From Escherichia phage BEK6, in sequence record MN158208.1: 46,736 nt of DNA; one strand, written 5' to 3'. Of the stretch, positions 17,396 to 33,211 are shown piece by piece. Under the pieces are notes generated by a model. It saw nothing but the letters and a program-made list of their open reading frames with translations, searched no databases and was not told where the DNA came from. The position numbers and the translations under genes were made by a program. The first letter of the stretch is position 1; each line of letters starts with the position of its first letter.

Positions 17396-20300
17396 ATGGC
17401 ACAAATGATCAAAACAAACATGAGGCTTTGTGATATGGCTGAAGATATTAAGATTTATGGTGCTAAAGGCGGTAGCCAGAAGCCGCACCAACCAGTGGAA
17501 CAAGAAGACAACCTGATTTCATTAAACAAGGTTAAGGTGTTACTTGCGGTTGCTGACGGCGAGGTGGATTCAAACTTCTCAATGAAGGATTTATACCTTG
17601 CTGACGTTCCTGTGCAGAACCAGGATGGTAGCTACAACTACGAAGGTGTTCGCGCTGAGTTCCGTGCTGGCACGCAGTATCAGGACTATATCGCTGGGCT
17701 TGATGGTGCCAACTCAGAGATTCAGGCATCCAGAGAGATCACGAACGATACACCGTATATCATCGCGGTTAACAATACTCAGCTATCGGCGATTCGTGTA
17801 AAGCTATACTGGCCTAGACTGGTTAAGCAAGAAAGCAATGGAGATCTGAACGGAACAACCTGCGAGTATGCAATTGACCTTTCTGTTAATGGTGGCGCTT
17901 ACCAGGAATATACTCGAGGAGTTGCTAACGGGAAGACAACTACAGGTTACGACCGCAGCATTCGTGTAAACCTTCCGGCTGAATTTGATAGCGCATTGGT
18001 TCGCATCAGAAAGATTACGCCAGATTCAACAAGTAGCACATTGGTTAACGGGATGCAGATTACAACCTATCAGGAAGTGATTGACGCTAAATTCCGCTAT
18101 CCGCTTACGGCTCTGGTTTATGTTGAGTTTGGATCTGACCTTTTCCCTAACGGAATACCGACAATCTCTATCAAGAAGCGCTGGAAGCTGATTCAGGTCC
18201 CAACCAACTACGACCCGGAAACAAGAACTTACAGCGGAACATGGAATGGACTGTTCAAAATGGCATGGTCAAATAACCCAGCCTGGGTTCTTTATGACTT
18301 AGTGACAAACCGTCGCTATGGCCTTGATCAACGAGAGTTGGGCGTGGAGATTGATAAGTGGGGATTGTATGAAGCCGCGCAATTCTGTGACCAGATGGTG
18401 CCAGATGGAAAAGGTGGAATGGAGCCGCGCTACCTGTGCGATATGGTTGTACAGAATAAGGTTGAGGCCTACACGCTAATTCGTGATATCTGCTCAATCT
18501 TCCGTGGCCTGACTTTCTATGACGGCGAAAAGATTGGTATTGTGGTTGATAAGCCACGCAACCCATCATACATCTTCACGAATGATAACGTTGTAAACGG
18601 ATTATTCAGCCGAACTTTTGCCAGTGATAAGAGCCTTTACACTACGGCAAACGTTCAGTTTGATGATGTGGAGAACAACTATCAGCAGGATGTTGAGCCA
18701 GTTTTCGAGCTCGAGGCTACTCGTCGATTCGGATTCAACCCAGTCGACCTTACGGCGATTGGGTGTACTCGCAGAAGTGAAGCAAACAGACGTGGCAGAT
18801 GGCTCCTGAAAACCAACCTGAGAAGCGAAACTATCAGCTTCACTACCGGGTTGGAAGGCATGATTCCGATGATTGGAGAGGTTATTGCGGTTAATGACGC
18901 GGCATGGTCCAGCAACTATCAGTTAAACCTTTCCGGTCGTATTGAATCAGTTCAGGGATTGCAGGTTTTTACCCCGTTTAAAGTTGACGCAGCGCCAGGT
19001 GACAGAATTCTTCTGAACAAACCCGACGGAAGTCCAGAAGCAAGAACTATTGCCAGCGTTTCGGAAGATGGTAGAACAATCAACCTGAATACTGCTTTTA
19101 GCTTTGTAGCTCAACCTGATACTGTGTTCGCAATTGATAAGGACAATCTTGCTCTTCAGCAATATGTTGTGACCGGGATTCAAAAAGCAGATTCTGATGG
19201 ATCGGATTCATTCCAGTATACGATTACAGCAGTGGAGTACGACCCGAACAAGTATGACGAGATTGATTACGGCGTTAACATTGTTGACCGCCCAACTTCA
19301 ATCGTAGAGCCTGACAGATTATCGCCACCAGAAAACCTGACGGTATCAAGCTACAGTAAGGTTGTTCAGGGTTTATCAGTTGAGACGATGGTTATCGGAT
19401 GGGATAAGGCTCCATACGCTAAAACATACAATGTTCAGTGGAGGAAAGAAAATGGCAACTGGATTAACGTACCAAGAACGGCAAGTACAGAGGTTGATAT
19501 CGAAGGTATTTACGCAGGAATCTATGACGTTAGGGTTCGCAGCGTATCAGATACTGAAAACGTGTCTGCCTGGTCTGATATTGTAACGGTATCGCTAACT
19601 GGCAAGATTGGCCGCCCATCGGCGCCTACGGTTATCACGGCGTCAGCTGATGAGGTATTTGGCATCCGTGTTAAATGGGGATTCCCTGATGGCTCTGGTG
19701 ATACTGCTTACACTGAGCTTCAGCAGGTTCCTGATAATGGCGATGGTACTTACAATCCTGATAACGCAAGTTTGCTGACTTTACTGCCTTATCCAGCCTA
19801 TGAATACTGGCACACGCCAATTCAGCCAGGAAAGGTTATCTGGTATCGCGCAAGATTGATTGACAGAATCGGTAACACATCTGATTGGTCTAATTTCGCA
19901 AGAGGCATGAGTACTGACGACGCCAACATTATCAATGATTACATCAAGGTTGATATTGAGGCTTCGGAAGGATTCAAATACCTCGAGCAGAATGCGATTC
20001 AAAAGAATCAGGACATTCAGAATCAGGCAGAGTCAATTCTTGAGAATGCATTAGCTAATGATGCAGACGTTCGCCGCATGACCAAGGAGAACGGCAAGCG
20101 TAAGGCTGAATATGTTCAGGCAGTTAATCTCATAGCCGATGAAACTCAGGCTCGTGTAGAGGCTCTAACAGCCCTTAAAGCGCAGATAGATGATGAAGTT
20201 GTAGCATCGATTACAGAAGTTCAGACAGCGCTAGCCACCGAGACAGAAGCAAGGACTACTGCAGACACTGCTCTATCAGCAAGATTGGGTGATAACGAGG

Positions 20301-20806
20301 CGGCTATAAACCAGAAATTAGACGCATTTTCCAATGCGACCTCTACTGGCGTGCAGTACGGAATTAGTCTTGGCCTTAAATACAATGGAAAGACTTATTC
20401 ATCCGGCATGAGCATGGAGCTAGTTGGCACTGGTGGAAACGTTCGCAGTCAGTTCATTTTTGACGCAAACAGATTCGCAATCAGTAACGGCATTGGTTCT
20501 GGTTCCGGTCAGTGGCAACTCCCCTTCGTTGTAGAGAACGGAAACGTAATCATCCAAAGTGCGGTAATTGGCGATGGCTCAATTACTAACGCGAAGATTG
20601 GTGACTTTATTCAGTCCAGCAACTACGTGGCAGGAAGCACAGGCTGGAGGATTGATAAGTCTGGTAACGCTGAGATTCGCGGCAAACTGTACGCCAACAG
20701 TGGTGAATTCGCCTTTAACGGAACAAACAATACGGTACAGATTAACGGAAACGGAATCACGGTTAACTTGCCTGGAGGAGGAAGAGTTGTGGTAGGTACT
20801 TTCTAA
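17396..20806 (+). CDS. central tail fiber / host specificity protein (lambda gpJ-like)
   Basis: 1136-aa ORF at the end of the tail module; fibronectin-III-like segment (YNVQWRKENGNWINVP...YDVRVRSV); exact start uncertain (ATGs at 17396/17405/17435). Confidence 0.8.
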   Translation: MAQMIKTNMRLCDMAEDIKIYGAKGGSQKPHQPVEQEDNLISLNKVKVLLAVADGEVDSNFSMKDLYLADVPVQNQDGSYNYEGVRAEFRAGTQYQDYIAGLDGANSEIQASREITNDTPYIIAVNNTQLSAIRVKLYWPRLVKQESNGDLNGTTCEYAIDLSVNGGAYQEYTRGVANGKTTTGYDRSIRVNLPAEFDSALVRIRKITPDSTSSTLVNGMQITTYQEVIDAKFRYPLTALVYVEFGSDLFPNGIPTISIKKRWKLIQVPTNYDPETRTYSGTWNGLFKMAWSNNPAWVLYDLVTNRRYGLDQRELGVEIDKWGLYEAAQFCDQMVPDGKGGMEPRYLCDMVVQNKVEAYTLIRDICSIFRGLTFYDGEKIGIVVDKPRNPSYIFTNDNVVNGLFSRTFASDKSLYTTANVQFDDVENNYQQDVEPVFELEATRRFGFNPVDLTAIGCTRRSEANRRGRWLLKTNLRSETISFTTGLEGMIPMIGEVIAVNDAAWSSNYQLNLSGRIESVQGLQVFTPFKVDAAPGDRILLNKPDGSPEARTIASVSEDGRTINLNTAFSFVAQPDTVFAIDKDNLALQQYVVTGIQKADSDGSDSFQYTITAVEYDPNKYDEIDYGVNIVDRPTSIVEPDRLSPPENLTVSSYSKVVQGLSVETMVIGWDKAPYAKTYNVQWRKENGNWINVPRTASTEVDIEGIYAGIYDVRVRSVSDTENVSAWSDIVTVSLTGKIGRPSAPTVITASADEVFGIRVKWGFPDGSGDTAYTELQQVPDNGDGTYNPDNASLLTLLPYPAYEYWHTPIQPGKVIWYRARLIDRIGNTSDWSNFARGMSTDDANIINDYIKVDIEASEGFKYLEQNAIQKNQDIQNQAESILENALANDADVRRMTKENGKRKAEYVQAVNLIADETQARVEALTALKAQIDDEVVASITEVQTALATETEARTTADTALSARLGDNEAAINQKLDAFSNATSTGVQYGISLGLKYNGKTYSSGMSMELVGTGGNVRSQFIFDANRFAISNGIGSGSGQWQLPFVVENGNVIIQSAVIGDGSITNAKIGDFIQSSNYVAGSTGWRIDKSGNAEIRGKLYANSGEFAFNGTNNTVQINGNGITVNLPGGGRVVVGTF

Positions 20807-20836
20807 AACAAAAGCCCCGAAAGGGGCTTTATATTT
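20805..20836. terminator. bidirectional terminator between convergent J-like and 314-aa genes
   Basis: GCCCC-gaaa-GGGGC flanked by an A-run upstream and T-rich sequence downstream. Confidence 0.6.
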
Positions 20837-21779
20837 AATACATATCAGGAAGGTAAGGAAGTGGCGTTGATATTGTTACGTCAGGCCTATTTCCTATCTC
20901 GTATCTGACAATCCTTGAGCCCGTGCCAGATCTAACATACCCGTTGCTCATTACAATTCCTTTGTTTCTCAACTCCTTATATGCTCGTATTGCCCTTGTG
21001 TTAAATCCACATCTGAGTATTGGGAAGTAGGATTCGCCAATGTATTGATTGCTACCTGATAGGTTTATGAATCCAGAAACAACCAATGGCCTTGTTAAAG
21101 TTGAAAGCGTGCAAATCCCATTAGAGTTAAATATGTTCAAGCCTGGGCCCGGAGTTGGAGCGACCATCTGGAAGATAATCAAATCCATAGTGACGCTTCC
21201 TGGTGTATCACCAGTATCTTCAGTATTTATGTTTGTACATATCAGTTGGTTGCTACCGTTGTATTCAACTGAAACGCCTGGGTTGCTCCACTTTCCAAAT
21301 GGTATACCATAAATTGGCAGTGTGTATGTGTTGGTGAAAGATATTCTCTGAGCAAACTTGCATACTAATAGCCTGTCAGTGGTGGTTATAGAAGTAAAGT
21401 CAGTACTGTCAGCAACGTAAATACCCTGGCCTGTAGATGCTCTTAGTACCTCAACAACAGTACCAGAAAATTGAGTTATACGGTCAGAATATCCATTCTC
21501 ATAGCCAATCGATATTGTTCCGCTTGATGCCGTTGATGAGAATCCATTTATGTAGTAAATCTCAACGCCCCTATCAAGTTCGAATGAGTATGCGCCATTG
21601 TTAGGGATAAGGAATCTTGACGCTCCCTCATTGCCCTGAATTGGAAAAGTCTTGCTAAACCCACCGCTAGAAACGTTGAAATTGCCAGCGAAATTCAATG
21701 CCCGCATCCCTGCGGTTATTGTCATTGGCTTCCTTCCGTCATTTAGGTCTATATAAATACCCTGAGCCATTAATTCCAC
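20835..21779 (-). CDS. hypothetical protein, candidate receptor-binding / tail-associated protein
   Basis: 314-aa Gly/Ser/Thr/Asn-rich ORF, GGAG RBS, co-oriented with and overlapping the upstream lipoprotein gene; function inferred by analogy with RBP-lipoprotein pairs. Confidence 0.4.
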
Positions 21780-22000
21780 TCCTTAGAGCCATGATCACGA
21801 ACAGAGCCACTGGGGCCTTTAATACCATCGTAGCGCACGTCAATTTCACCAGCTGGTACAACCATGCCACTTTTCCATTTAGCTACGCACACGCCGTTTG
21901 AGGACGTTGCACACCAACCATCCGGGCGAGGACCAGAAGAACAACCAACTGCCATGATTACTACTAATGCGATGATTGCCGATTTGATTAAGTTATTCAT
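21770..22000 (-). CDS. small lipoprotein, Cor/Llp-like superinfection-exclusion candidate
   Basis: 76 aa; N-terminal signal peptide ending IMAVGC (lipobox-like) then Cys-containing mature part; AAGGA RBS and its own palindrome/-10/leader module. Confidence 0.5.
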
Positions 22001-22066
22001 TTTTAAATCCTTAGTAAGTATGTTTCGTTTCGATGAAGTAATAGTATCGCATCCCTGCGATCAGTG

Positions 22067-22086
22067 TTTAGCAATTAGTGCTATTT
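22067..22086 (-). promoter_or_regulatory. gene-boundary palindrome copy (AAATAGCACTAATTGCTAAA on minus strand)
   Basis: Overlaps stop of the Rha-like gene; minus-strand TACTAT 22 bp downstream and CATCGAAACGAAAC leader before the lipoprotein gene. Confidence 0.5.
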
Positions 22087-22734
22087 CTTTTCCAGCAACA
22101 TCTTAATGTCAATGCCTAGCTCATTCTCAATTAATCCAGTCAGTGCATCGGCTTTTTCTTTAAGGGCAAAACACTGCGCTTCATACTTAAATCTTTCCTC
22201 CATCTCATTCGAGCGACTAGCCCAACACTGGCGAGCCTCACAAGCCAGCATATCGAGTTTTTCATCGGTATTCTTATCCATGAGTAAGATCTCATTTATT
22301 CTTTGCTCTGCAACAATGCGCTGGCTCAGGTGTGCATTTTGCGCATTAGCCACACCAAGCATCATTCGCGCCTCTTTTAACTCATCAATGCTTACCATCT
22401 GGCTGATCACTTCTGCTTGTTTTTTAACTAATGCCTCAAGCTCATGAAGTCGACGGATAACCCTGTGACGAAGAGCGACACTGTAGCCAGTGATTAGCGT
22501 TTCGGTGAGTTCCTTGTTGAGTAAAACCTCAGATGTATAGCCGCGACTGTCCGTAAGTACTTGATAATCATCATGACCCAAATCTGGGGCATCGTTATAA
22601 TGTAACAATTCATTGATCATTTCCTTTGTGTCGCGAACTACGTGATCATGACGCTTACCTGTCAATTCAGCAATTTCCTTCGTGCTCATCATGGTTTTTT
22701 GCTGTTCTTTGTACACTTTAATGTTCATTTTCAT
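22081..22734 (-). CDS. Rha-family regulatory (antirepressor-like) protein
   Basis: N-terminal motif STKEIAELTGKRHDHVVRD matches the Rha signature; first gene of the minus operon leaving the 22.7-23.3 kb control region. Confidence 0.5.
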   Translation of the reverse strand: MKMNIKVYKEQQKTMMSTKEIAELTGKRHDHVVRDTKEMINELLHYNDAPDLGHDDYQVLTDSRGYTSEVLLNKELTETLITGYSVALRHRVIRRLHELEALVKKQAEVISQMVSIDELKEARMMLGVANAQNAHLSQRIVAEQRINEILLMDKNTDEKLDMLACEARQCWASRSNEMEERFKYEAQCFALKEKADALTGLIENELGIDIKMLLEKK

Positions 22735-22825
22735 CTCTCTTTGTTTTTGCGCTACCGATTTTCGGTATCACAAGCAGCACCATTGCCGCCATGCGCCTAA
22801 ATATACCTAAAGATATCCAGTTGTC

Positions 22826-22845
22826 TTTAGCAAATAGTGCTATTT
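22826..22845 (-). promoter_or_regulatory. palindrome copy (AAATAGCACTATTTGCTAAA on minus strand) upstream of the Rha-like gene
   Basis: Minus-strand TATATT (forward 22800-22805) 22 bp downstream; about 70-nt leader to ATG 22734. Confidence 0.45.
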
Positions 22846-22966
22846 ATAGCCAATTTCACCACAAATCACAGTTACACGTAACCGATGTAACTCGATGTAT
22901 ACAATCTCATCCGCGGAAAATGATATACGCCCTGTTACGCCAATTTACGCATTAGTTACATTAAAA

Positions 22967-23030
22967 TATCTATATATATCAACATTTTACTCTTATTATT
23001 ATTATTATATATATTACTGTGTATATCATG
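22967..23030. repeat. AT-rich repeat element with (TTA)n tract, copy A
   Basis: ATATCTATATATATCAACATTTTACTCTTATTATTATTATTATATATATTACTGTGTATATC; near-identical copy at 41828-41896. Confidence 0.7.
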
Positions 23031-23255
23031 TAACTACTTCTATAGAGTGTTCCGGTTATAATTTTAATATCATGTGGATTTATACAGTATTGCGTGACAG
23101 CTATACCAATGCACCCCCCCCTGCAAGAAACGGTATACACGATATACACGATGGTTACATTGAGCTATGGCTGGGCTGAGATGCCATTTTACGTAACTAG
23201 TGGCAACACCTACACGGAATTACAAGGATTCACGCGTAAGTTTAAATCAATCTGC

Positions 23256-23284
23256 TTGACATCAATGCGGATTAGTTGTACTAT
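23256..23284 (+). promoter_or_regulatory. candidate sigma70-type promoter for the HNH gene / plus-strand early operon
   Basis: TTGACA (23256-23261), 17-bp spacer, TACTAT (23279-23284). Confidence 0.5.
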
Positions 23285-23314
23285 CAATTAAACAAAACAG
23301 CGGAGGGCTTATTT

Positions 23315-23806
23315 ATGGAATGGGGAGACATCTTTGAATACAGCAACGGAAAGCTTTACTGGAAGATAAGACCAGCAATGAGGATGAGGGTTGGCGACCT
23401 TGCGGGGACGGAATGTAAGGGTTACATTCAAGTTAACTGCAAAGCCAAATCGGGGGTAAATAAACTATATAGGGCGCATAGGATTGTATGGGAAATGCAT
23501 CATGGACCAATACCAGAAGGGGTAGTTATCGACCACATTAATGGGAATGGTCTAGACAACAGGATTGAGAACCTAAGAGTGGTTACGCAAGCAGATAATC
23601 AGAAGAACAAGAAGGTTGGTAAAAACAATGAAAGTGGTGTTCTTGGTGTTGCTTGGTATAAGCCTAGTTCGAAGTGGGTCGCTAGAATATCTAAGGATGG
23701 GAAGTGGTCACATATTGGGTATTTCGATAATTTCGAGGATGCCGTAAGAGCTAGGCGAGAAGCTGAATTAGAATTCAAATATCACGAAAATCACGGGAGA
23801 CGTTAA
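23315..23806 (+). CDS. HNH homing endonuclease with AP2-like DNA-binding domain
   Basis: HNH motif (YRAHRIVWEMHHGPIPEGVVIDHINGNGLDNRIENLR) followed by GVLGVAWYKPSSKWVARI...GYFDNFEDAVRARREAE; GGAGGG RBS, TTGACA-17-TACTAT promoter upstream. Confidence 0.7.
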   Translation: MEWGDIFEYSNGKLYWKIRPAMRMRVGDLAGTECKGYIQVNCKAKSGVNKLYRAHRIVWEMHHGPIPEGVVIDHINGNGLDNRIENLRVVTQADNQKNKKVGKNNESGVLGVAWYKPSSKWVARISKDGKWSHIGYFDNFEDAVRARREAELEFKYHENHGRR

Positions 23807-23807
23807 A

Positions 23808-24002
23808 ATGACCTACTACATTATCAAAGAGAAAAACAACGCACTATTCGGCGACTGCTACTTTGGTGGCCCTGCCGGATACACAACGAATAAGAACGAG
23901 GCAGACCGATTCGAGACTAAAGAAGAAGCCAGAGATGTACTGACCGGTTACTTCACTGAGGAAGATTTGAAATCGTTTAAGATTGTTAAGGTTAAGGATT
24001 GA
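23808..24002 (+). CDS. hypothetical protein
   Basis: 64-aa ORF tightly packed after the HNH gene. Confidence 0.4.
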   Translation: MTYYIIKEKNNALFGDCYFGGPAGYTTNKNEADRFETKEEARDVLTGYFTEEDLKSFKIVKVKD

Positions 24003-24007
24003 TTGAG

Positions 24008-24226
24008 ATGAAAACATGTGAAGAGAATTTTATATCACTAAATGATTTTATTGGTGATGATTTTGACTATTCTGATGTAATTGTTACATGGACTGCTGGA
24101 GGAGACGTTTTTTCAGATATGCTGATTTATAGTACAGACTATAGCAACTACCATTGGGAAGAAGACGAAGAATACGAAGAGGCTAGACTTTATTATTCTG
24201 AAATCATTAACGTTAAGAGAGTTTAA
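24008..24226 (+). CDS. small highly acidic protein
   Basis: 72 aa, very Asp/Glu-rich (WEEDEEYEEARLYY); AAGGA RBS; sits upstream of the exonuclease/ERF/SSB genes. Confidence 0.4.
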   Translation: MKTCEENFISLNDFIGDDFDYSDVIVTWTAGGDVFSDMLIYSTDYSNYHWEEDEEYEEARLYYSEIINVKRV

Positions 24227-24230
24227 GAAA

Positions 24231-25196
24231 ATGACATTTACCGTATACACACGAGAAGAGTTAACCAACGATGCTTATCACTCAGAGACTGACCACATTT
24301 CCGGTAGCTCACTTGTCGAGATTATCCAGGGTTCGCCAGCTAAGTGGAAGTTTAAACAGCGCAACAATGATAGCAAGGCGCTCAAGTTTGGAACACTGAG
24401 TCACACGTACATCCTCGAAGGTGACATGTTTGATAAAGAATACCTTCGAGCTACAGACCTTGACGCGATTGAAGGATTAATTACAAGCCAGACCGGATTA
24501 TCTGCAGCGCTGAAAAAAGTTGGCGTAGCTGGCACGTCCGGGAAGAGCTATAGCGAACTCGTAGAGATGATGTATCGATCTGGTGAGGATTGGCCTGTTA
24601 AATGGCTAATTGAGCAGCAGGAGAGCGCTCAAGCGCTTGTGGATGGTAAGGAGCTAGTTAGTGCCGCTGACTACGATAAAGTTGTGGCTATGCGTGAGGT
24701 TCTTTGCAATATACCGGCATATAATGCAATCGTGAATAGTGAGACAGCGCAAAAAGAGCTATCAATCTTCGGTGAAATTCTCGAGGTTGGGGTTAAGATT
24801 CGAATTGACCACGTAGATGTTGTTGATGGCGTTGTTCGGATCACAGATTACAAAACTACCGCAGACGCTAGCCCAGAAGGCTTTGGCAAGTCAGCATTCT
24901 CGCACGGATACCTTGCAAAAATGGCGCTTCAGCGAGATCTTTTTGTGAAGGCATTCAACGAGAAGCGAAAGGTTGTTGTAGGATTGCTGGCACAAGAGAA
25001 AGTGGAGCCATACCTCCCCATGCTTTACACCTTGACGGATGAGCAGCTAAGAATCGGCCGATTGCAGTATCTTGAGGCTCTTGCCACATATAAGAAGTGC
25101 AAGGAGCTTGATATCTGGCCTGGCTACTCAAATGGCATTACAGAGCAAGAGCTATTGGTTCCTGATTGGGCATTAAAACAATACAAAGAAATCTAA
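24231..25196 (+). CDS. PD-(D/E)xK family exonuclease (recombination nuclease)
   Basis: RIDHVDVVDGVVRITDYKT core resembling the D...(D/E)xK nuclease motif; adjacent to ERF and SSB genes. Confidence 0.6.
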   Translation: MTFTVYTREELTNDAYHSETDHISGSSLVEIIQGSPAKWKFKQRNNDSKALKFGTLSHTYILEGDMFDKEYLRATDLDAIEGLITSQTGLSAALKKVGVAGTSGKSYSELVEMMYRSGEDWPVKWLIEQQESAQALVDGKELVSAADYDKVVAMREVLCNIPAYNAIVNSETAQKELSIFGEILEVGVKIRIDHVDVVDGVVRITDYKTTADASPEGFGKSAFSHGYLAKMALQRDLFVKAFNEKRKVVVGLLAQEKVEPYLPMLYTLTDEQLRIGRLQYLEALATYKKCKELDIWPGYSNGITEQELLVPDWALKQYKEI

Positions 25197-25214
25197 ATAG
25201 CACTAATTGCTAAA
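25195..25214 (+). promoter_or_regulatory. palindrome copy AAATAGCACTAATTGCTAAA in the ERF gene leader
   Basis: Overlaps exonuclease stop; followed directly by TACAAAAT, RBS and ATG 25236 (no -10-like hexamer). Confidence 0.45.
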
Positions 25215-25235
25215 TACAAAATTAAAAGGTGGTGT

Positions 25236-25919
25236 ATGATTACCCCATCAACGACGAACGAGGTTAATATGCAAATTTCAGAATCATGCAAATCAATTTT
25301 AAACGCGCTGCACACTGCCAAATCGCTATTTGCGAAGGCTGAAAAGTCTAAGCAGAACTCACACTTAAAGAACAAGTACGCTACCCTAGAAGACGTTTTG
25401 GCGGCCGTTGAGCCTGGTTTAGATGAGTGTGGGCTTGTTATGTTCCAGAGTGTACTTGATGATGAACAAACCAATCGCATGAAGGTTGAGACAAAACTGT
25501 TTCATGCTGAATCTGGAGAGTGGGTTAGCTTCTTGATGATCGTACCAATCAGTAAGAATGATGCACAAGGTTACGGCTCAGCTTTAACATACGCTCGACG
25601 TTACGGAATCACAGCGGCGTTAGGACTTAGCCAGGCAGATGATGATGGTAATCTCGCAGCGAAAGGTGTTAAGGACTTTAAGCGAGAGCTAGAGAAATGC
25701 AATACTCTTGATGAGCTTCGCAATGTCTGGAAGGAGGCTAAGCAGTCACTTGATGCGGCAGGATGGAAGGTTTTCGAACCCCACATCATAGAGCGAAAGG
25801 CAGAGATTGAAGCAAATGCAGCAACTGGCTTCAACCCAGCAGAACCAAAGAAAGTTGCAGAAAAAAGTAGTCCTGAAGAAAAGATTAAAGTAGAATCAAA
25901 ACAAATCGACACATTCTAA
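25236..25919 (+). CDS. ERF-family single-strand annealing protein
   Basis: Conserved ERF-like segments (KYATLEDV..., GSALTYARRYGITAALG); ATG 25269 is an alternative start. Confidence 0.65.
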   Translation: MITPSTTNEVNMQISESCKSILNALHTAKSLFAKAEKSKQNSHLKNKYATLEDVLAAVEPGLDECGLVMFQSVLDDEQTNRMKVETKLFHAESGEWVSFLMIVPISKNDAQGYGSALTYARRYGITAALGLSQADDDGNLAAKGVKDFKRELEKCNTLDELRNVWKEAKQSLDAAGWKVFEPHIIERKAEIEANAATGFNPAEPKKVAEKSSPEEKIKVESKQIDTF

Positions 25920-25960
25920 TTTAAGAGATGCTTCGGCCCCAACAATAGAGAGATAAAAAC

Positions 25961-26365
25961 ATGCACATAATTACTGGTCAGATTCGCCGCGCTCCATTCA
26001 CCAAAGAAGGCGTAAACGCCAATGGTAACTGGAAAATGTTCGCAGTTGATTTGAGTGAGCGCTACAAAGATAAAGATGGTCAATCACAGTACACAAATTA
26101 TCGTGCCGTCTTCTTCGCTAAAGAATCTATGTTAGATTGGTACAATGATGCATTTCAAGAAGGTAAAGTTGTTAGTGTTAGCGCTGAAAGCTTGGCTGTA
26201 GATGTTAGGGATAAAGATGGTAAGACTTACGTAACCATTAACATGAATAATCCTCGGCTTGAGTTTAGTCAGCGAGGTGAGAGTGGAGGTCAACAACAAC
26301 AGCAACAGCGTCAACAGCCACAGCCACAGCAGCAACAGCAGTTCAATGACGACATTCCATTCTAA
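25961..26365 (+). CDS. ssb: single-stranded DNA-binding protein
   Basis: OB-fold-like N-terminal domain, Gly/Gln-rich linker and canonical acidic tail ...FNDDIPF. Confidence 0.8.
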   Translation: MHIITGQIRRAPFTKEGVNANGNWKMFAVDLSERYKDKDGQSQYTNYRAVFFAKESMLDWYNDAFQEGKVVSVSAESLAVDVRDKDGKTYVTINMNNPRLEFSQRGESGGQQQQQQRQQPQPQQQQQFNDDIPF

Positions 26366-26380
26366 TACTGAAACAAATAA

Positions 26381-26403
26381 GGAGCCTTGCGGCTCCTTTT
26401 TTT
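26381..26403. terminator. bidirectional terminator between SSB (+) and fiber-like (-) genes
   Basis: GGAGCC-ttgc-GGCTCC followed by TTTTTTT. Confidence 0.65.
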
Positions 26404-26404
26404 A

Positions 26405-28912
26405 TCATGCTCCGTAAGCAACGGAGCCATCTGCTTTTAACCATGAAGTTCCGTTGTACCACACAGGAATCCCAAGGTTGGTATCGAAAGTTGTGAAACC
26501 TACAGGCTGAAAAGCCCTTTTGGCTTTGATTTCGGCAGTTGTTCCATAGCTGTACTCTTTAAGCCTATGCGAAACCAAGTCAGAATTCCTGTTCCATAAG
26601 ATTTCATGCTCTTCAATCTTACCCCCAGAAGTTATTGAGTTAACCTGGTAGATACACCTAATCGTAGACATAGCACCAGAGTAATAATGTCCAAAAATAG
26701 AAATGAATCCAGTATCGTCCTGTATTTCATTTAACCACGGTTGAAAAACAGATCGAATATCACCCGTTGCTTCTGAAAGTGATAGCCTGAACTCAAAATC
26801 ACTCTTAACATTGTTTGATACACACCATGCGTTTACTGCATTAAAGGCTTCCAGTACCGTCATGGAAGGCTTCACATTTGAAAAGTAAAGGTACTTTGCA
26901 ATCTCAGAGCTACTATTAACAATGACATTGGAATCCTGAATGGTGCTGCTGAAATTCTTTACAGGAAAAAGAGATGCATTAACAACATTTAAAGCCCTTG
27001 TTAATGGATATGAAAGTCTTTCCAGCGTGTTTGTGTAATGATTTCCGGTTGTCGCGTCTACTATCCCAGCCCTGTATTTTATAAGATTAGGGTCCCATAT
27101 GGTTAAGTCAAAAAAGCAACCATCCATAAAACCAATGCCGTTTGATATCTTCACAACCTTTTGCATCATTGCGTGTGGTTGTGACTTGAGTCTGACTCTT
27201 ATGTCACCAATTCCACCTGCCACATTTCCACCAGACTTCGGCAAGCTATTGTCAACAAAATGATTCGTACTAAGCCACGCAACAAGATTCAAGTCCATTG
27301 ATGAAATAAAGTTTAACTTATTTGATCCAACGCTGATTGCGTGAGCGTTAGTAAAACCAGTTGACGAAACATCTATATCATTCCATATCAATACCTCTTG
27401 ATCTTTTGAGTTGCAGTCAATTGAGAATCCATAACCCTCATCATTAACTGGTGATGCTGCGGCCTCTTGCTTGATGGCTCCTTGCTTGTTGAATACGTAG
27501 AAATTACCAAAGAATGTTCGCTGGCTAAGTCTAGAGAAGTTTTGCGGCCCAGTATAGTAATTAGAACCCCTTAAAGTAAGAGCTACGCGCGAGTAACCGC
27601 CACCAGGTATGTCAACCTCAATTCTCATTCCATTAGCATTAAAGTTTGCTATAGGGTTTTTAAAGACAAATCCGTCAATGTCAGTTTTTATTAAAAAAAC
27701 AACATCTTCCGAAATGCTTACTTCCTTTAAACGTCCAATATCAATAGTCTTCGTACTAGAAATTAGATAAACACCAGATTTTACAACAAACCTGCCATCT
27801 GAAATCATAGCGTCAAAGCTAGAATCTACTGGCGTAGCTCCGGTATTATCTGCTCCGTAAGAAACTAAATCACCAATGAACCTTGATGTTGATTCCTCTT
27901 TTGAGTAAACATCAAGATTAGTTCTTGCTGCGGCTTTATCTTTAACGTCAGAGAAATTCAATGATTTTTGAAAAGTCTCATTTTTTGAATAAACATCAAG
28001 CAACCCCCTAACCCTTAAAGCAGAAGCTCCACCAGTAGCACCATCTCCACCAGGAACGCTTAGAAGTTCCCTTACATAAAAATTCCTAGAACCAGTAGCT
28101 CCAGTAAAGGTAATTTCCGCAACCCTAAAAGCTGCGTTTGAGGTTGTAGAAGGAGAAATTCTTACTACGTTACTTCCATTAATACCACTCGTTGCAAGAA
28201 CATCAATACAAATGGTGGTGTTTGTCGCCGGGAACATTGAACTTAAGTCTGCCGGAATGTTAACCATGTTGTCAATTCTGCACTGGTAACTACCACCTGA
28301 ATAAAATTGCATTGTCTGCCAATCAAGAGATGTTAAAAGTGGTGTTGTAGTACTTCCTATACCGTGTTCTGCAAAGTAAGCCACTGCGGCGGTATTCCCG
28401 GCTGCATTTATTACGGCAACGGTTCTCTTGTATGAGTTCTGTGCATTATTGCTAGCACCAACGGCAGTAGCGGCGCTCTCTGCGGCAGCAATCTGGCTAG
28501 CAAGAGCCTCAGCAGCTCCAGTGGTGGATTGTTTTGCAAGTTTCTCGAAGCGAGGCCAGTCGAAAGTGTCTTGACCAATAAATTGCAGCAATCCTTCGAT
28601 GGATGTCTCCTTTGACTGGTAGTATCGTAAAGTCTCCGCAACATCCTGAGCCAAACCCTGAACGGTAATACCATCGTGAGCAAGAATCGCATAACCCGTA
28701 CCGGCCGGAACTGTTTCAGAATTAGGATTGTAAACATTAATCTGCGTATCACTGATGATTTCAGAGATGGTGTAAATTTTTAGTGGGTTAGTTTTAAAAA
28801 TGATAGTGGCACCAACCCTGATCAGTGTAAGAGGTGCTTTCCATACTGTCCCCGCGCCAGTTACCTCGCCATTTGCGGCCAGCGAGGCGGTTCCTAAGTC
28901 ATAAATTGCCAT
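26405..28912 (-). CDS. putative tail fiber / tailspike-like protein
   Basis: 835-aa ORF rich in Gly/Ser/Thr/Asn; GC-richer 5' portion and AT-rich central/3' portion; GGAGA RBS; palindrome copy in the 5' leader. Confidence 0.5.
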   Translation of the reverse strand: MAIYDLGTASLAANGEVTGAGTVWKAPLTLIRVGATIIFKTNPLKIYTISEIISDTQINVYNPNSETVPAGTGYAILAHDGITVQGLAQDVAETLRYYQSKETSIEGLLQFIGQDTFDWPRFEKLAKQSTTGAAEALASQIAAAESAATAVGASNNAQNSYKRTVAVINAAGNTAAVAYFAEHGIGSTTTPLLTSLDWQTMQFYSGGSYQCRIDNMVNIPADLSSMFPATNTTICIDVLATSGINGSNVVRISPSTTSNAAFRVAEITFTGATGSRNFYVRELLSVPGGDGATGGASALRVRGLLDVYSKNETFQKSLNFSDVKDKAAARTNLDVYSKEESTSRFIGDLVSYGADNTGATPVDSSFDAMISDGRFVVKSGVYLISSTKTIDIGRLKEVSISEDVVFLIKTDIDGFVFKNPIANFNANGMRIEVDIPGGGYSRVALTLRGSNYYTGPQNFSRLSQRTFFGNFYVFNKQGAIKQEAAASPVNDEGYGFSIDCNSKDQEVLIWNDIDVSSTGFTNAHAISVGSNKLNFISSMDLNLVAWLSTNHFVDNSLPKSGGNVAGGIGDIRVRLKSQPHAMMQKVVKISNGIGFMDGCFFDLTIWDPNLIKYRAGIVDATTGNHYTNTLERLSYPLTRALNVVNASLFPVKNFSSTIQDSNVIVNSSSEIAKYLYFSNVKPSMTVLEAFNAVNAWCVSNNVKSDFEFRLSLSEATGDIRSVFQPWLNEIQDDTGFISIFGHYYSGAMSTIRCIYQVNSITSGGKIEEHEILWNRNSDLVSHRLKEYSYGTTAEIKAKRAFQPVGFTTFDTNLGIPVWYNGTSWLKADGSVAYGA

Positions 28913-28924
28913 TGTGTAGAGTCT

Positions 28925-28944
28925 CCATTTTGTAGAATAGCACG
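28925..28944 (-). promoter_or_regulatory. palindrome copy in the 5' leader of the 835-aa fiber-like gene
   Basis: Minus-strand reading TTAGCAATTCGTGCTATTC then TACAAAAT-GGAGA RBS; candidate extended -10 TGaTACAAT just upstream on the minus strand. Confidence 0.45.
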
Positions 28945-28968
28945 AATTGCTAAGTTGGATTGTATCAT

Positions 28969-28992
28969 CTTTCAGGCATAAAAAAACCTCCC
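28969..28992 (-). terminator. rho-independent terminator after the primase gene (minus strand)
   Basis: Minus-strand AACCTCC-ttcg-GGAGGTT followed by TTTTTTT. Confidence 0.6.
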
Positions 28993-29000
28993 GAAGGAGG

Positions 29001-29924
29001 TTAGTCTAGTAATTCGCTTGCCTTGTATATCCTCTTCCTTATGCCTGACTTAAAAAATTTATCATCATTTGGCATTACCACATCAAGATTGCGATCGTCA
29101 GCAACGGCGAGTAAATCAAAATCGTGGCGAGCACAAGCGACGCGTAACTTGTAGTTTCTAAGCGCGTAAGCAACCATTTCCATGTTGTAGCTGGAGTAGC
29201 AAACAAACACGCAGCGGTTGCCAGTAGCAATATGAACGCGAACACCATCAATCCAATTATCGACCAGATAAGCGTACTCATCACTTTTAAAGGCACCAAT
29301 AACAGCAATAGACTGGCGAGTGTAATCTTTTGCAGCATAACTAACATCTCCCTCTTCATTAATAAACATTACATTGCACATCTCATCGGACAATCCATCA
29401 CTATAGGCCATAAAACAAGGCACTGCGTGTATTAGTTCTCCTGATTTTGTCCTGCCGACATCAAAACCAAACTCGCTATAGATACCCTCGTATATACTTA
29501 GTGGAGTTGATTCTACTCTTTCCGTCCTTTCCATTATCTCTAAGCATCTTTCGTGGTCAATCTGAGCGCCCATTTTGTACAGCTGAGTCCTTGATGCTTG
29601 CTTGTTTGCCTTATTAACCACTTCTACAGGGATAAGGTTTAACCACTCACCGAGAACATCGACACATTCACTGAATGACTCCCCTCGCATCTTCTGAACC
29701 CAGACAATTCCATCTCCTGAGCCACACTGGTTGCAGATAATGCCACCATCACCTTCTTCGCTAACCTTGTTGGTCCATCGTGCTCGGTCTTTTCCTCCAC
29801 AATAAATACATGGCTGATGCTTTTTGGTCTGGAAGAATTTTGGGTCTGCGCCGCAAATGTTTATAAGCGCCTTATCCCACAGTCCGCGCATTCTTGGTAG
29901 AACCTCTTTCTTATCGTAGTGCAT
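29001..29924 (-). CDS. putative DNA primase (zinc-ribbon containing)
   Basis: CIYCGG...CNQCGSG paired CxxC zinc-ribbon near the N-terminus; divergent from the helicase gene; strong terminator downstream on the minus strand. Confidence 0.45.
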   Translation of the reverse strand: MHYDKKEVLPRMRGLWDKALINICGADPKFFQTKKHQPCIYCGGKDRARWTNKVSEEGDGGIICNQCGSGDGIVWVQKMRGESFSECVDVLGEWLNLIPVEVVNKANKQASRTQLYKMGAQIDHERCLEIMERTERVESTPLSIYEGIYSEFGFDVGRTKSGELIHAVPCFMAYSDGLSDEMCNVMFINEEGDVSYAAKDYTRQSIAVIGAFKSDEYAYLVDNWIDGVRVHIATGNRCVFVCYSSYNMEMVAYALRNYKLRVACARHDFDLLAVADDRNLDVVMPNDDKFFKSGIRKRIYKASELLD

Positions 29925-29982
29925 ATCAATCTATCTCTTAACAAATAAAAAAGGATGTACCGATTATGGCACATCCAATTAT

Positions 29983-30456
29983 TTACTCTTTAGCTTTTCG
30001 TGCTGCTTCGTTAGCGGCCTTAATTTTGCGCCAGGAGCGACACTCCGGCTTGGTGGCTAACTCAGCCTCAGTAACCACACGCAGCATGTGGCGTTTTTTG
30101 CATCGTAGAGTTAGCGGCTTTCCGTTGCCATCGAATTGTAGATCTGGTCGGCAGAATGTAGCTCGAAAACCTTCTCCGGTTCGTTTGTAGTAGTTGTGCG
30201 ACAACTGAGCGCCACGCGCAGAAATCATACCACGCTTAAACCATTCTTCTACAGCCTGTGGTGTTACCTTTAACTGCTTTGCGATATTAGCCTTTGTGCC
30301 AAAGAAATCAAGGAGCATCTCAAGACGTGCTCGTAGCCCGGCCCTTACTTCATCTTTTAAAACGTAGTAACCTGAGGGTCGTTTTCGCTGTTTTTTGTCT
30401 TCAGTGCGGACTGTTCCGTTGTTGCCGTTAATGGTTCGCTTGTCTACTTCATTCAT
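29983..30456 (-). CDS. putative HTH DNA-binding protein
   Basis: 157-aa basic protein with helix-turn-helix-like segment GTKANIAKQLKVTPQAVEEWFKRG; first gene of the minus-strand primase operon. Confidence 0.4.
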   Translation of the reverse strand: MNEVDKRTINGNNGTVRTEDKKQRKRPSGYYVLKDEVRAGLRARLEMLLDFFGTKANIAKQLKVTPQAVEEWFKRGMISARGAQLSHNYYKRTGEGFRATFCRPDLQFDGNGKPLTLRCKKRHMLRVVTEAELATKPECRSWRKIKAANEAARKAKE

Positions 30457-30466
30457 TTGTCACCTC

Positions 30467-30486
30467 AATAGCATTTATTGTTAAAA
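30467..30486 (+). promoter_or_regulatory. degenerate palindrome copy (AATAGCATTTATTGTTAAAA) in the primase/helicase divergent region
   Basis: TGgTATTAT extended -10-like element about 20 bp downstream, upstream of helicase ATG 30557. Confidence 0.4.
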
Positions 30487-30556
30487 GTCATCCTGATTTG
30501 ATGGTATTATTGTACTCAATTAAACGCTACAAGACAATTTTTATAGGAATTTAGAT

Positions 30557-32551
30557 ATGTTGCCTATCGAGAAGCTGGTTGCCAACTTTGATAAAGAAAG
30601 AATTAAACAGATTCAGAAAGATTACCAGTTTGGCGAGATAACCCCTTACGAGTTCCAGTGCGTTACATTTGACGCAATTGGGAAGGCTATTGGCAAGTAC
30701 GAAGCGCCATTTATCGCAGACCTTTCCGTATCGGCTGGTAAGACAATCATTCTCGCTATGATTGGGAAGCGTATGGAGCAGCTTGGCCTTCCTTATATGG
30801 TGCTTTCTCGCCAGTCAGAGATAATCAGTCAGAACTCAGAGGAGCTTCGTAATTTCGGAATCCGTAACAGCGTCTATTGCGCTGGTCTTAACGTTAAATC
30901 AGTTTACTACCCAACTATAGTGGCTAGTGAGGGTACAGCAGCCAATGGCTTGTTTAAGGGGCTTGGTGACTATGTTCCGGCTGTTATAGCCATCGACGAG
31001 TGTCACATGCTTGATCCTATGGATATCGTTGAAGCTGAGGAGAACGAAGAAACATTTGAGCAAATGAGCACAAAGAAAGGCGAGGTGGTTTTTAAGGATG
31101 GCGTAAACACCGGATTGCTTGGCACTGGTCGCGCGCAATACACGCTAATTATCACCGAGATGAAACGTCGTTGTCGTGAGAAGTATGGGCGTGAGCTTCG
31201 TATATTTGGCCTTACTGGTAGCCCTTATCGAAACAATGACCATATCGTCGTTAGCAATCCAAACATCCGTGGGTTCTGGCGAAAAACTGTGATTCAGGTT
31301 CCAACAAATTACCTTGTTGATTTGGGATTCGTGGTTCCTACTGTTTATGGCGAGGTTGGCGATTTAGGCTATGACCTTAGCGAGTTTGTTCCAGACGGTA
31401 GTGATGGCGTGAAAGACTTCAGCAAGAAAGAGATGGATGCAATGGCTGCAAAGATTCACGACAACCAAACCATGACACAAAAGATAATGCAGTTTGTCGT
31501 CAAAATACTGGAAACTCGTAACGCCGCATTGGTAACGTGTGCTGGTAAACTTCACTGCGAAGAAGCTGCTGCAGCGCTACCAGATGGATACCCTTATGCC
31601 ATCATCACCGACTCCACGGGAGAGAGGAAGCGCAGAGAGATTCTTGCTGATTGCCAGACAGGTAAGTACAAAATCATATTTCAGATTGGTTGTCTAACCA
31701 CGGGCGTAAACCAACCGCTGTGGGATACTAGCGTAATACTACGAAAGATTGGAAGCCTAACTCTTATGATTCAGCTTCTTGGCAGGGGAATGCGCAAACT
31801 TAAGAGAGCGCATATTGATGCTGGTTTTCATAAAGAAGATCATCTTGTGTTGGATTTTGCTGGCGCACTGGATGACATGGCTGAACTTTACTTTGACCCA
31901 ATTATTGAAGAGATTCAGGCCGAGAAGTTTAAGTCGTCAAGGAAGGGTGGCGACGAGGTTCGCAAGTGTCCGAAATGTGGATATGAGAACTCACCATTTG
32001 CAAGGCGCTGTGGTAATAAGATCGATGAAAAGCGCTGTGAGCACTTCTTTAGCTTCGCTTTATGTGAGGATATTACCGACCCTCAGACGAAAGCTGTTAT
32101 TAAGAAGGGTTGCGGAACTAAAAATGACATAGCGGCAAAGGTTTGCCGAGAGTGCGGAGAGATGCTTAAAGACCCGAATGCTAACCTGACTGGCAAGATG
32201 TATCGTCGTGGAGATTACCTGCGTGTTTATGATTTCCAGGTTGGTTTAAGCAAGGACCAAGCGGGCATTGTAGTTAAGTACAACATCATGGCTCATAACG
32301 GAGAGAGATTTAACGCTTGGGAGTTCTTTAATCCTGAATCTGACCATCGAGTTTGCAGAGTTCTATGGAAAAACTTCTGCCTGGCTCACATTGAGAATCG
32401 CACGGAAGCAGCAAGAATTGGCAGACTGAAGAATGCCAGAATGATTATGACTAACGTAGATAAGTTCCGTGCGCCAGTGCAGGTAACGCACCGCAAGAAT
32501 GGAAAAGGAAAGGACGTGATCGCTTTTAAGAATTTTGGAGAATTGTTATGA
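30557..32551 (+). CDS. SF2 DEAD/DEAH-box-type ATP-dependent helicase
   Basis: Motif I SVSAGKT, motif II DECH, C-terminal Cys clusters (CPKCGY...RRCGNK; CRECGEM) suggesting zinc ribbons. Confidence 0.8.
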   Translation: MLPIEKLVANFDKERIKQIQKDYQFGEITPYEFQCVTFDAIGKAIGKYEAPFIADLSVSAGKTIILAMIGKRMEQLGLPYMVLSRQSEIISQNSEELRNFGIRNSVYCAGLNVKSVYYPTIVASEGTAANGLFKGLGDYVPAVIAIDECHMLDPMDIVEAEENEETFEQMSTKKGEVVFKDGVNTGLLGTGRAQYTLIITEMKRRCREKYGRELRIFGLTGSPYRNNDHIVVSNPNIRGFWRKTVIQVPTNYLVDLGFVVPTVYGEVGDLGYDLSEFVPDGSDGVKDFSKKEMDAMAAKIHDNQTMTQKIMQFVVKILETRNAALVTCAGKLHCEEAAAALPDGYPYAIITDSTGERKRREILADCQTGKYKIIFQIGCLTTGVNQPLWDTSVILRKIGSLTLMIQLLGRGMRKLKRAHIDAGFHKEDHLVLDFAGALDDMAELYFDPIIEEIQAEKFKSSRKGGDEVRKCPKCGYENSPFARRCGNKIDEKRCEHFFSFALCEDITDPQTKAVIKKGCGTKNDIAAKVCRECGEMLKDPNANLTGKMYRRGDYLRVYDFQVGLSKDQAGIVVKYNIMAHNGERFNAWEFFNPESDHRVCRVLWKNFCLAHIENRTEAARIGRLKNARMIMTNVDKFRAPVQVTHRKNGKGKDVIAFKNFGELL

Positions 32552-32781
32552 ATGCACTAGGCTTTGCTATAAAAGAAATGATTGAGGAAAGGATAAGGAA
32601 AAGAAACCATGACATTCTAATGTCCGTCTCTGATAATGTTTTTGAACATATACTATACCACGGAGTAACGAGCGAGAATTCACATTGTGCAGGTATGGTG
32701 TACAACGGTATTTACTTTAGTGAGCATGAGATAATCTCAGCTTACTTTTCTAGAAATGAAGAAGCGGAGCCATTATTTTGA
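32548..32781 (+). CDS. hypothetical protein
   Basis: 77-aa ORF, ATGA overlap with the helicase stop, GGAG RBS. Confidence 0.4.
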   Translation: MNALGFAIKEMIEERIRKRNHDILMSVSDNVFEHILYHGVTSENSHCAGMVYNGIYFSEHEIISAYFSRNEEAEPLF

Positions 32782-33197: not shown

Positions 33198-33211
33198 CAC
33201 GAATTGCTAAA
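33192..33211 (+). promoter_or_regulatory. gene-boundary palindrome copy AAATAGCACGAATTGCTAAA
   Basis: Contains the TAG stop of the VRR-NUC gene; TATTAT at 33232-33237 (22-bp spacing); CATCGAAACGAAAC 33243-33256. Confidence 0.5.

What the first reader, a model, noticed from the sequence alone, without database searches (positions are those of the whole stretch)
26291..26342. CAA/CAG microsatellite encoding a poly-Gln linker in SSB
The SSB linker GGQQQQQQRQQPQPQQQQQ is encoded by an almost pure CAA/CAG tract of about 50 nt, a slippage-prone repeat that could vary in length between isolates while preserving the acidic DDIPF tail.
Basis: seen in the sequence. Interest (0 to 1): 0.25.

Follow-up and report, generated by a model that had tools for sequence, protein, structure and literature searches.

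The report
Variable glutamine linker in phage SSB
The CAA/CAG tract is real and encodes the flexible glutamine-rich tether of a T1-like phage's single-stranded-DNA-binding protein; its length does drift among related phages, by whole codons, while the protein's docking tail stays fixed, which is ordinary for this protein family.

Summary
They encode QQQQQQRQQPQPQQQQQ inside ORF 25961-26365.

The ORF product is a 134-aa distant homologue of bacterial SSB. It has an OB-fold core (aa 1-105), a 22-aa Gln/Pro/Gly linker and the tip FNDDIPF. The gene follows a PD-(D/E)XK exonuclease gene and an ERF annealase gene in a Drexlerviridae/Braunvirinae phage. The protein is 100% identical to a phage BEK6 protein.

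- In 118 close homologues the core is essentially indel-free, the linker spans 19-36 aa, and the xIPF tip is kept.
- DNA shows codon-step allelic series: (CAA)3/4/5 in the window's own linker type and (CAG)3/4/5 in another. This is the signature of slippage.

The tract is not a hypermutable microsatellite.
- Its longest pure run is (CAA)3.
- Pure runs never exceed 5 units in 27 orthologues.
- 42 clonal isolates of a related phage, which carries a different linker allele, are identical across the gene.
- A re-assembly from reads reproduces the window's tract.

Part of the diversity comes from recombination. The window's linker-tip-terminator segment (~26247-26405) has a different ancestry from its core.

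Verdict: an ordinary, already understood property of SSB disordered linkers. Low interest.

The parts
24231..25196 (+). PD-(D/E)XK exonuclease (DUF3799), first gene of the recombination module (context)
   Evidence: Pfam PF12684 E 1.5e-21. Same gene order in relatives.
25269..25919 (+). ERF-family single-strand annealing protein, immediately upstream of the SSB gene. The mechanical ORF starts at 25236, but the 216-aa form called in relatives and in the Logan contig starts at 25269.
   Evidence: Pfam PF04404 ERF E 8e-28. Gene call 2309-2959 in L023 corresponds to window 25269-25919. 651-nt ERF CDS in relatives.
25961..26365 (+). SSB gene (134 aa plus stop)
   Evidence: ORF list. PHROG_44 SSB E 3e-29. 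hhalign against E. coli SSB 96.9%. Profile against PDB SSBs E 9e-5. 100% identical to a phage BEK6 protein.
25961..26275 (+). OB-fold DNA-binding core, aa 1-105 (ends ...LEFSQR)
   Evidence: AF2 topology of strands 3-8, 14-19, 22-36 and 42-53, helix 55-66, strands 70-74, 79-83 and 89-94. Foldseek top 50 hits are all SSBs. Core length is 105 aa in 117 of 118 homologues.
26276..26341 (+). Disordered linker, aa 106-127 (GESGGQQQQQQRQQPQPQQQQQ), 14 of 22 residues Gln
   Evidence: pLDDT below 50 for residues 96-134. Composition. Length 19-36 aa in 118 homologues, 61% Gln overall.
26291..26341 (+). The CAA/CAG tract of the finding (17 codons)
26291..26299 (+). (CAA)3 run, the site of codon-step length polymorphism: (CAA)4 and (CAA)5 occur in otherwise near-identical linker alleles
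   Evidence: Codon-by-codon comparison of the window with L019/L020 and L021/L022. Alignment A3.
26342..26362 (+). C-terminal acidic tip FNDDIPF. Its last five residues are identical to the tip of E. coli SSB. Stop codon at 26363-26365.
   Evidence: Sequence. D130, D131, I132, P133 and F134 are invariant across Drexlerviridae orthologues. Tip variants are F-x-x-[D/S/V/E]-IPF, plus one L-x-x-D-IPF, in 118 homologues.
26379..26405 (.). Hairpin (26379-26398) plus T-run: bidirectional intrinsic terminator between the SSB gene and the convergent tail-fibre gene (26405-28912, minus strand)
   Evidence: Terminator scan finds the same hairpin on both strands. A terminator is annotated at the same place in phage CEB_EC3a.
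26247..26405 (+). Recombinant segment (last core codons, linker, tip, terminator) whose ancestry differs from the rest of the gene
   Evidence: The window is 96.8% identical to BEK1-1 over the core nt 1-315 and tracks BEK1-1/vB_EcoS site by site to about 26242. From about 26248 it tracks the P0002/P0004 contigs instead, at about 98%, while the cores of those contigs are only 84-85% identical to the window's.

Best explanation
The tract encodes the intrinsically disordered linker of a bacterial-type SSB made by a T1-like (Drexlerviridae, Braunvirinae) coliphage. The N-terminal OB fold binds ssDNA. The 22-residue Gln/Pro/Gly tether holds out the tip FNDDIPF. That tip copies the E. coli SSB tip (DDIPF), so phage ssDNA coated with this protein can recruit host SSB-interacting proteins (inferred), and probably the phage's own ERF annealase encoded just upstream (inferred by analogy). 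Only disorder, rough length and composition of the tether matter, so its coding DNA has decayed into cryptically simple CAA/CAG sequence. Occasional replication slippage on short same-codon runs adds or removes whole codons. Point substitutions (CAA<->CAG, Q->R/P/K/H) interrupt the runs. Recombination swaps the whole linker-tip-terminator segment between phages. Every change is a multiple of three, so the tip is never lost. Shown here: the sequence, the homology, and the pattern of variation. Inferred: the slippage mechanism, the disorder, and the partner binding.
For: SSB identity: PHROG_44 E 3e-29; hhalign 96.9% against E. coli SSB; profile hits to full-length solved SSBs 7f2n and 1eqq/4mz9, including linker and tip; OB topology with disordered residues 96-134; top 50 fold matches all SSBs; relatives annotated as SSB. 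Variation: 118 homologues have a 105-aa core with one length exception, linkers of 19-36 aa that are 61% Gln, and a conserved tip. Slippage signature: the window has (CAA)3, L019/L020 have (CAA)4 and L021/L022 have (CAA)5 in an otherwise near-identical 3' end. A second series has a terminal (CAG)3/4/5. A third shows CAACAT and (CAA)nCAG duplications. In every case the inserted codon copies its neighbour. L019 and L021 are about 99% identical over 2.6 kb, and one of their few indels is this CAA unit. Interrupted structure: CAA:CAG is 215:210 in 27 linkers, against 118:276 in the window's long ORFs, and pure runs never exceed 5 units even in 14-Gln stretches. Recombination. Literature: the SSB linker's length and composition are not conserved while the C-terminal peptide is, and that peptide binds at least 18 partners (PMC7584906). 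[quoted passage not shown] A phage SSB tip is needed by its cognate annealase (PMC5928155).
Against: Pfam's SSB model (PF00436) does not match the protein even at E<=1, and a single-sequence PDB search finds nothing. The AF2 model is weak (mean pLDDT 59), and the fold matches have E~1e-3 with TM 0.3-0.5. Slippage is inferred from allele patterns, not observed. Unequal recombination between repeats would give the same alleles. The contrast between an indel-free core and a variable linker also reflects selection: a folded domain does not tolerate indels. So it does not by itself prove a raised mutation rate. No binding experiment exists for this protein.
Confidence: 0.8

Rival explanations
1. 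The tract is a true hypermutable microsatellite (contingency locus). Linker length changes at high frequency within a phage population and gives adaptive heterogeneity, for example to tune replication or to evade defence systems that sense phage SSB.
For: Extensive length diversity among close relatives: 34 of 39 pairs with identical cores differ in linker length. Codon-step allelic series. Phage SSBs are known triggers of Retron-Eco8, Hachiman and AbpAB.
Against: The longest pure run in the window is 3 units and at most 5 in 27 orthologues. 42 independently sequenced clonal isolates of a related phage, plus its RefSeq copy, are 100% identical over the gene and tract. Four Veterinaerplatzvirus T145P1 records with different genome lengths have the same gene length. 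The Logan re-assembly of SRR11808697 reproduces the window exactly. The protein database is non-redundant, so pairs with identical cores must differ somewhere by construction. In T7, Retron-Eco8 activation needs the OB fold and not the C-tail, and the SECphi4 SSB is gp2.5-like, a different family.
Confidence: 0.05
2. No slippage is involved. The tract in this phage is effectively stable, and all length diversity reflects relaxed selection on a disordered segment plus recombinational shuffling of old linker alleles between phage lineages.
For: The window's linker-tip-terminator segment has a different ancestry from its core. Linker alleles that are nearly identical sit on cores differing by 8-15% in nucleotides. 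Many linker differences are substitutions. Clonal isolates do not vary.
Against: Within a single linker allele, the only differences are one or two extra copies of the adjacent codon: CAA in a CAA run, CAG in a CAG run, or a CAACAT or (CAA)3CAG unit duplicated in place. This is seen in three independent series. Recombination between diverged alleles would not produce such a pattern without a repeat-mediated (slippage or unequal-exchange) step.
Confidence: 0.13
3. The tract is not a translated linker. Either the ORF is not an SSB, or the repeat serves a DNA/RNA-level role or another reading frame (antisense ORF 26132-26335, +1-frame ORF 26259-26417).
For: Pfam gives no SSB hit. Two overlapping alternative ORFs exist.
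Against: The reading frame, the OB core and the terminal IPF are conserved across Drexlerviridae from Escherichia to Vibrio hosts, and all indels are multiples of three. Homology to SSB is supported by four independent methods. The antisense 'LLLLLL' and +1-frame 'NNNSNS' ORFs are automatic by-products of a CAA/CAG run. The tract does not belong to the terminator hairpin, which lies 38 nt downstream.
Confidence: 0.02

Closest known systems
E. coli SSB (P0AGE0; PDB 1EQQ/4MZ9/1EYG) and other bacterial homotetrameric SSBs
   Same: Three-part architecture: OB-fold core, low-complexity Gln/Gly/Pro disordered linker and acidic tip ending DDIPF. The profile aligns end to end. More distant Drexlerviridae orthologues (damhaus, Solomon, Salmonella phage 36, Vibrio P23) even carry GGWGQPQQ and PPMDFDDDIPF, as E. 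coli SSB does. Linker length and composition are known to be unconserved while the tip is conserved (PMC7584906).
   Different: The core is very diverged: about 20% identity, below Pfam PF00436 detection. The protein has 134 aa against 178. The linker has 22 aa against about 57, and is 64% Gln rather than Gly-rich. The tip is FNDDIPF, not DFDDDIPF. The oligomeric state is unknown.
Phage SSB encoded next to its cognate annealase, e.g. HK620 SSB with Sak4 (PMC5928155)
   Same: A phage-encoded bacterial-type SSB sits in a recombination module. Its last six residues resemble the host tip and are required for the partner annealase to load on SSB-coated ssDNA. Here the SSB gene directly follows an ERF annealase gene and a PD-(D/E)XK exonuclease gene.
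   Different: The annealase here is ERF family, not Sak4/RecA-like. The interaction is untested. The HK620 tip is NDYPPF.
Interrupted CAA/CAG poly-glutamine coding repeats (cryptic simplicity; CAA-interrupted polyQ tracts of eukaryotic proteins such as TBP or ataxin-2; from general knowledge)
   Same: The poly-Gln is encoded by intermixed CAA and CAG. Length changes occur in whole codons. Interruptions limit pure-run length and hence instability.
   Different: The tracts are much shorter (pure runs of 3-5 units). The setting is a lytic phage replicating in E. coli. There is no evidence of expansion bias or of any pathology-like threshold.
T7 gp2.5-type phage SSBs (including the SECphi4 SSB that triggers Retron-Eco8)
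   Same: Phage SSB with an OB fold and an acidic C-terminal tail ending in Phe that recruits replication partners.
   Different: A different OB-fold family: about 230 aa, dimeric, and its tail binds phage-encoded polymerase and helicase. The window protein aligns to bacterial SSBs instead. No Gln-rich linker.

Membership tests
Bacterial-type SSB (OB fold + disordered linker + acidic tip) | N-terminal OB-fold domain homologous to the SSB DNA-binding domain | tested here: met
   PHROG_44 E 3e-29. hhalign probability 96.9%, E 1.8e-10, against E. coli SSB residues 10-81. Profile against PDB: 7f2n E 9.4e-5, 1eqq E 2.3e-3. Foldseek top 50 hits all SSBs, but with a weak model.
Bacterial-type SSB (OB fold + disordered linker + acidic tip) | Passes the curated Pfam SSB model (PF00436) | tested here: not met
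   No PF00436 hit even at E<=1. The family is a distant branch that only profile methods can see, and precomputed Pfam is '-' for all 120 homologues.
Bacterial-type SSB (OB fold + disordered linker + acidic tip) | Low-complexity intrinsically disordered linker of variable length | tested here: met
   pLDDT below 50 and no secondary structure after residue 101. 64% Gln. Length 19-36 aa in 118 homologues.
Bacterial-type SSB (OB fold + disordered linker + acidic tip) | Conserved acidic C-terminal tip ending ...D-I-P-F at the very C-terminus | tested here: met
   FNDDIPF followed by stop. D-D-I-P-F invariant in 11 diverse orthologues. All 118 close homologues end in IPF.
Bacterial-type SSB (OB fold + disordered linker + acidic tip) | Binds ssDNA, oligomerises, and recruits partners through the tip | not testable with these tools
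   Requires biochemistry.
Microsatellite / slippage-prone simple sequence repeat | Long uninterrupted tandem array of one short unit (roughly 5-6 or more units) | tested here: not met
   The longest perfect runs are (CAA)3, (CAACAG)2 and (CAGCCA)2.5. TRF reports only 69-79% matches.
Microsatellite / slippage-prone simple sequence repeat | Unit-step length polymorphism among close relatives | tested here: met
   (CAA)3/4/5, (CAG)3/4/5 and in-place CAACAT and (CAA)nCAG duplications.
Microsatellite / slippage-prone simple sequence repeat | Length heterogeneity within a clone, stock or read set | tested here: inconclusive
   No variation among 42 clonal isolates of a related phage that carries a different linker allele. 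The Logan re-assembly of the window phage's own run gives the same tract. Raw reads could not be examined.
Phase-variable contingency locus | Repeat-number change switches expression or reading frame on and off | tested here: not met
   All observed indels are multiples of 3, and the frame and tip are always kept.

The most novel reading that the evidence does not exclude
The linker-tip-terminator segment (~26247-26405) may be an exchangeable cassette in Braunvirinae phages. The low-complexity CAA/CAG DNA would act both as a slippage site and as a recombination hot spot. Linker length (19-36 aa) would then be actively tuned: to the host's set of SSB-interacting proteins, to SSB condensate or cooperativity behaviour, or to escape from defence systems that sense phage SSB. 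It would not be merely drifting.
Probability: 0.1. Interest if true: 0.4.

Novelty: new member of a known kind. Interest (0 to 1): 0.15.

Why it matters
It matters little beyond annotation. The protein that BEK6, BEK1-1, DTL, T1 and other records label 'hypothetical protein' can be called an SSB with a host-mimicking tip. This fits the inference that these phages plug their ssDNA into host replication and repair proteins and into their own ERF annealase. The codon-step alleles give a small, clean natural example of how disordered linkers change length without harming a terminal docking motif. Linker length could also serve as a fine-scale strain marker in Drexlerviridae metagenomics. Nothing here challenges current understanding of SSB linkers.

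Tried and rejected
(1) Pfam scan: no SSB hit, only sub-threshold noise.

(2) Single-sequence PDB search: only spurious weak hits. A family profile was needed.

(3) AF2 with 60 close homologues: low confidence (pLDDT 59). I used it only for topology and disorder. The Foldseek scores are weak, although the hits are uniformly SSBs.

(4) Link to Retron-Eco8 and SSB-sensing defence: rejected as directly relevant. The SECphi4 SSB is a gp2.5-like protein, and in T7 the C-tail is dispensable for activation.

(5) IMG/VR scans for the window's exact linker flanks and tip codons: 0 hits.

(6) Literature search for phage BEK6: nothing.

(7) Antisense ORF 26132-26335 ('LLWLWLLTLLLLLL') and +1-frame ORF 26259-26417: rejected as by-products of the repeat.

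(8) Second-best Gln-codon cluster (about 5056-5106, minus strand): this is an out-of-frame reading antisense to the 4257-5342 gene, not a real tract.

(9) The count of identical-core pairs with different linkers is partly forced, because the database is non-redundant. I do not use it as a rate estimate.

Full report
**Observation.** The sequence at 26291-26341 reads CAA CAA CAA CAG CAA CAG CGT CAA CAG CCA CAG CCA CAG CAG CAA CAG CAG.
- It lies in frame in ORF 25961-26365 (+), whose 134-aa product ends GESGGQQQQQQRQQPQPQQQQQFNDDIPF. The stated end (26342) is one base too far.
- The tract has 14 Gln codons out of 17. The next-best 17-codon stretch in any of the six frames has 9, and that is an out-of-frame antisense reading near 5056-5106. 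No more than 6 were seen in 200 shuffles.
- It is the top-scoring tandem array in the window.
- As DNA it is an interrupted repeat. The longest perfect runs are (CAA)3, (CAACAG)2 and (CAGCCA)2.5.

**What the gene is.** The window is a Drexlerviridae (Braunvirinae, Veterinaerplatzvirus-like) coliphage.
- About 76% of the 18000-34000 segment aligns at about 90% identity to the vB_EcoS-12210I group.
- The protein is 100% identical to a 'hypothetical protein' of Escherichia phage BEK6.
- A Logan assembly of run SRR11808697 is identical to window 22961-29365.

Pfam's SSB model does not see the protein, and neither does a single-sequence PDB search. Four other lines agree that it is a distant bacterial-type SSB.
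- PHROG_44 'single strand DNA binding protein', E 3e-29.
- A profile of 11 Drexlerviridae orthologues aligns to E. coli SSB with 96.9% hhalign probability over the OB fold.
- The same profile matches full-length solved SSBs, 7f2n at E 9e-5 and 1eqq/4mz9 at E 2e-3, through core, linker and tip.
- A low-confidence AF2 model (pLDDT 59) has the strand-strand-strand-helix-strand-strand OB order. Residues 96-134 are disordered, and its 50 best PDB fold matches are all SSBs.

Relatives are annotated as SSB or OB-fold protein. The gene is the third member of a recombination module: DUF3799 PD-(D/E)XK exonuclease at 24231-25196, ERF annealase at 25269-25919, then SSB. It ends at a bidirectional hairpin terminator at 26379-26398, facing a convergent tail-fibre gene.

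In 118 close homologues (81-100% identical) the core is 105 aa in all but one (106 aa). The linker ranges from 19 to 36 aa and is 61% Gln. The window's 22 aa is near the short end. Every protein ends in IPF. Eighteen annotated phage orthologues, from Escherichia to Vibrio hosts, show the same design at 134-156 aa.

At the DNA level three allelic series differ by copies of the neighbouring codon or unit.
- The window's own linker allele occurs with (CAA)3 (window), (CAA)4 (L019/L020) and (CAA)5 (L021/L022). The rest of the 3' end is otherwise almost unchanged.
- A second allele carries a terminal (CAG)3, (CAG)4 or (CAG)5.
- A third shows in-place duplication of CAACAT and (CAA)nCAG units.

L019 and L021 are about 99% identical over 2.6 kb, and this CAA unit is one of their few indels. 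This is what replication slippage, or unequal exchange between repeats, would produce.

**Limits on 'slippage-prone'.**
- Pure same-codon runs are short: 3 units here, and never more than 5 in 27 orthologues, even where the protein has 14 consecutive Gln.
- CAA and CAG are intermixed at 215:210, against 118:276 in the window's long ORFs.
- Forty-two independently sequenced, essentially clonal isolates of the related phage vB_EcoS-12210I, plus the RefSeq copy, are 100% identical over a 520-nt query spanning the gene, tract and downstream flank. That phage carries a different linker allele. Four T145P1 records with different genome sizes have the same gene length.
- The read-based re-assembly of the window phage agrees with the window.

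So the tract changes on evolutionary time scales, not visibly on laboratory ones. It is not a contingency locus: all changes keep the frame.

**Recombination.** The window is 96.8% identical to BEK1-1 over the core nt 1-315 and tracks BEK1-1/vB_EcoS site by site to about 26242. From about 26248 to the terminator T-run (about 26405) it follows the P0002/P0004 contigs instead, at about 98%. The cores of those contigs are only 84-85% identical to the window's. In the (CAG)n series, near-identical linkers likewise sit on cores 8-14% apart. Part of the linker diversity is therefore exchange of a linker-tip-terminator segment.

**Mechanism (inferred).** As in E. coli SSB, the OB fold coats ssDNA and the flexible linker presents the tip.
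- In bacterial SSBs the linker's length and composition are not conserved. The C-terminal peptide is conserved and binds at least 18 genome-maintenance proteins (PMC7584906).
- The phage tip FNDDIPF shares DDIPF with the host. More distant orthologues carry PPMDFDDDIPF and GGWGQPQQ, identical to E. coli SSB.
- The likely role is to connect phage ssDNA to host replication and repair proteins, and by analogy with HK620 Sak4-SSB (PMC5928155) to the adjacent ERF annealase.
- Because only disorder and approximate length are selected, the coding DNA tolerates codon-step indels.

**Comparison and verdict.** This is a new, divergent member of a well-known kind (bacterial-type SSB with a variable disordered linker). 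The repeat is a cryptically simple coding sequence, not a classical microsatellite. Interest is low.

Noticed in passing
window 26247-26405: The SSB gene is a mosaic. The core matches BEK1-1/vB_EcoS-type phages. The last core codons, linker, tip and terminator match a different lineage (the metagenomic contigs carrying P0002/P0004), and those contigs have different tail-fibre genes downstream. The linker-tip-terminator segment looks like an exchangeable unit.
   Followed up: partly
window 41854-41875 and 22993-23008: Perfect (TTA)7.3 and (TTA)5.3 trinucleotide arrays (TRF, 100% matches). These are purer microsatellites than the CAA/CAG tract. The first lies in a very AT-rich, TATATA-containing stretch that looks intergenic or regulatory.
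   Followed up: no
window 25236-25919: The mechanical ORF for the ERF annealase starts at 25236 (227 aa). Relatives and the Logan gene call use the internal ATG at 25269 (216 aa), which is probably the real start.
   Followed up: partly
L014 (Solomon), L016 (damhaus), L017 (Salmonella phage 36), L018 (Vibrio P23): More distant Drexlerviridae-type SSBs carry GGWGQPQQ and/or (N)EPPMDFDDDIPF, which are identical to segments of the E. coli SSB linker and tip. This suggests that the C-terminal region was acquired from, or is closely tracking, the host protein.
   Followed up: no
P0041 (152 aa, metagenomic homologue): One homologue reads through past ...FNDDIPF into 18 extra residues (ASLGLQYGKHRIYAL...). 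That would bury the terminal Phe which SSB partners normally recognise. It may be a stop-codon loss, a sequencing error or a defective allele.
   Followed up: no
window 26379-26398: An eight-pair GC-rich hairpin with T-runs on both strands, between the convergent SSB and tail-fibre genes: a likely bidirectional intrinsic terminator. Its T-run length differs by one T from the P0002/P0004 contigs.
   Followed up: partly
L002 codons 108-133 (vB_EcoS-12397V linker): This relative's linker contains an 18-nt unit, CAA CAG CAA CCT CAG CGG (QQQPQR), repeated about 2.5 times. Linker growth can therefore also occur by duplication of larger units, not only single codons.
   Followed up: no
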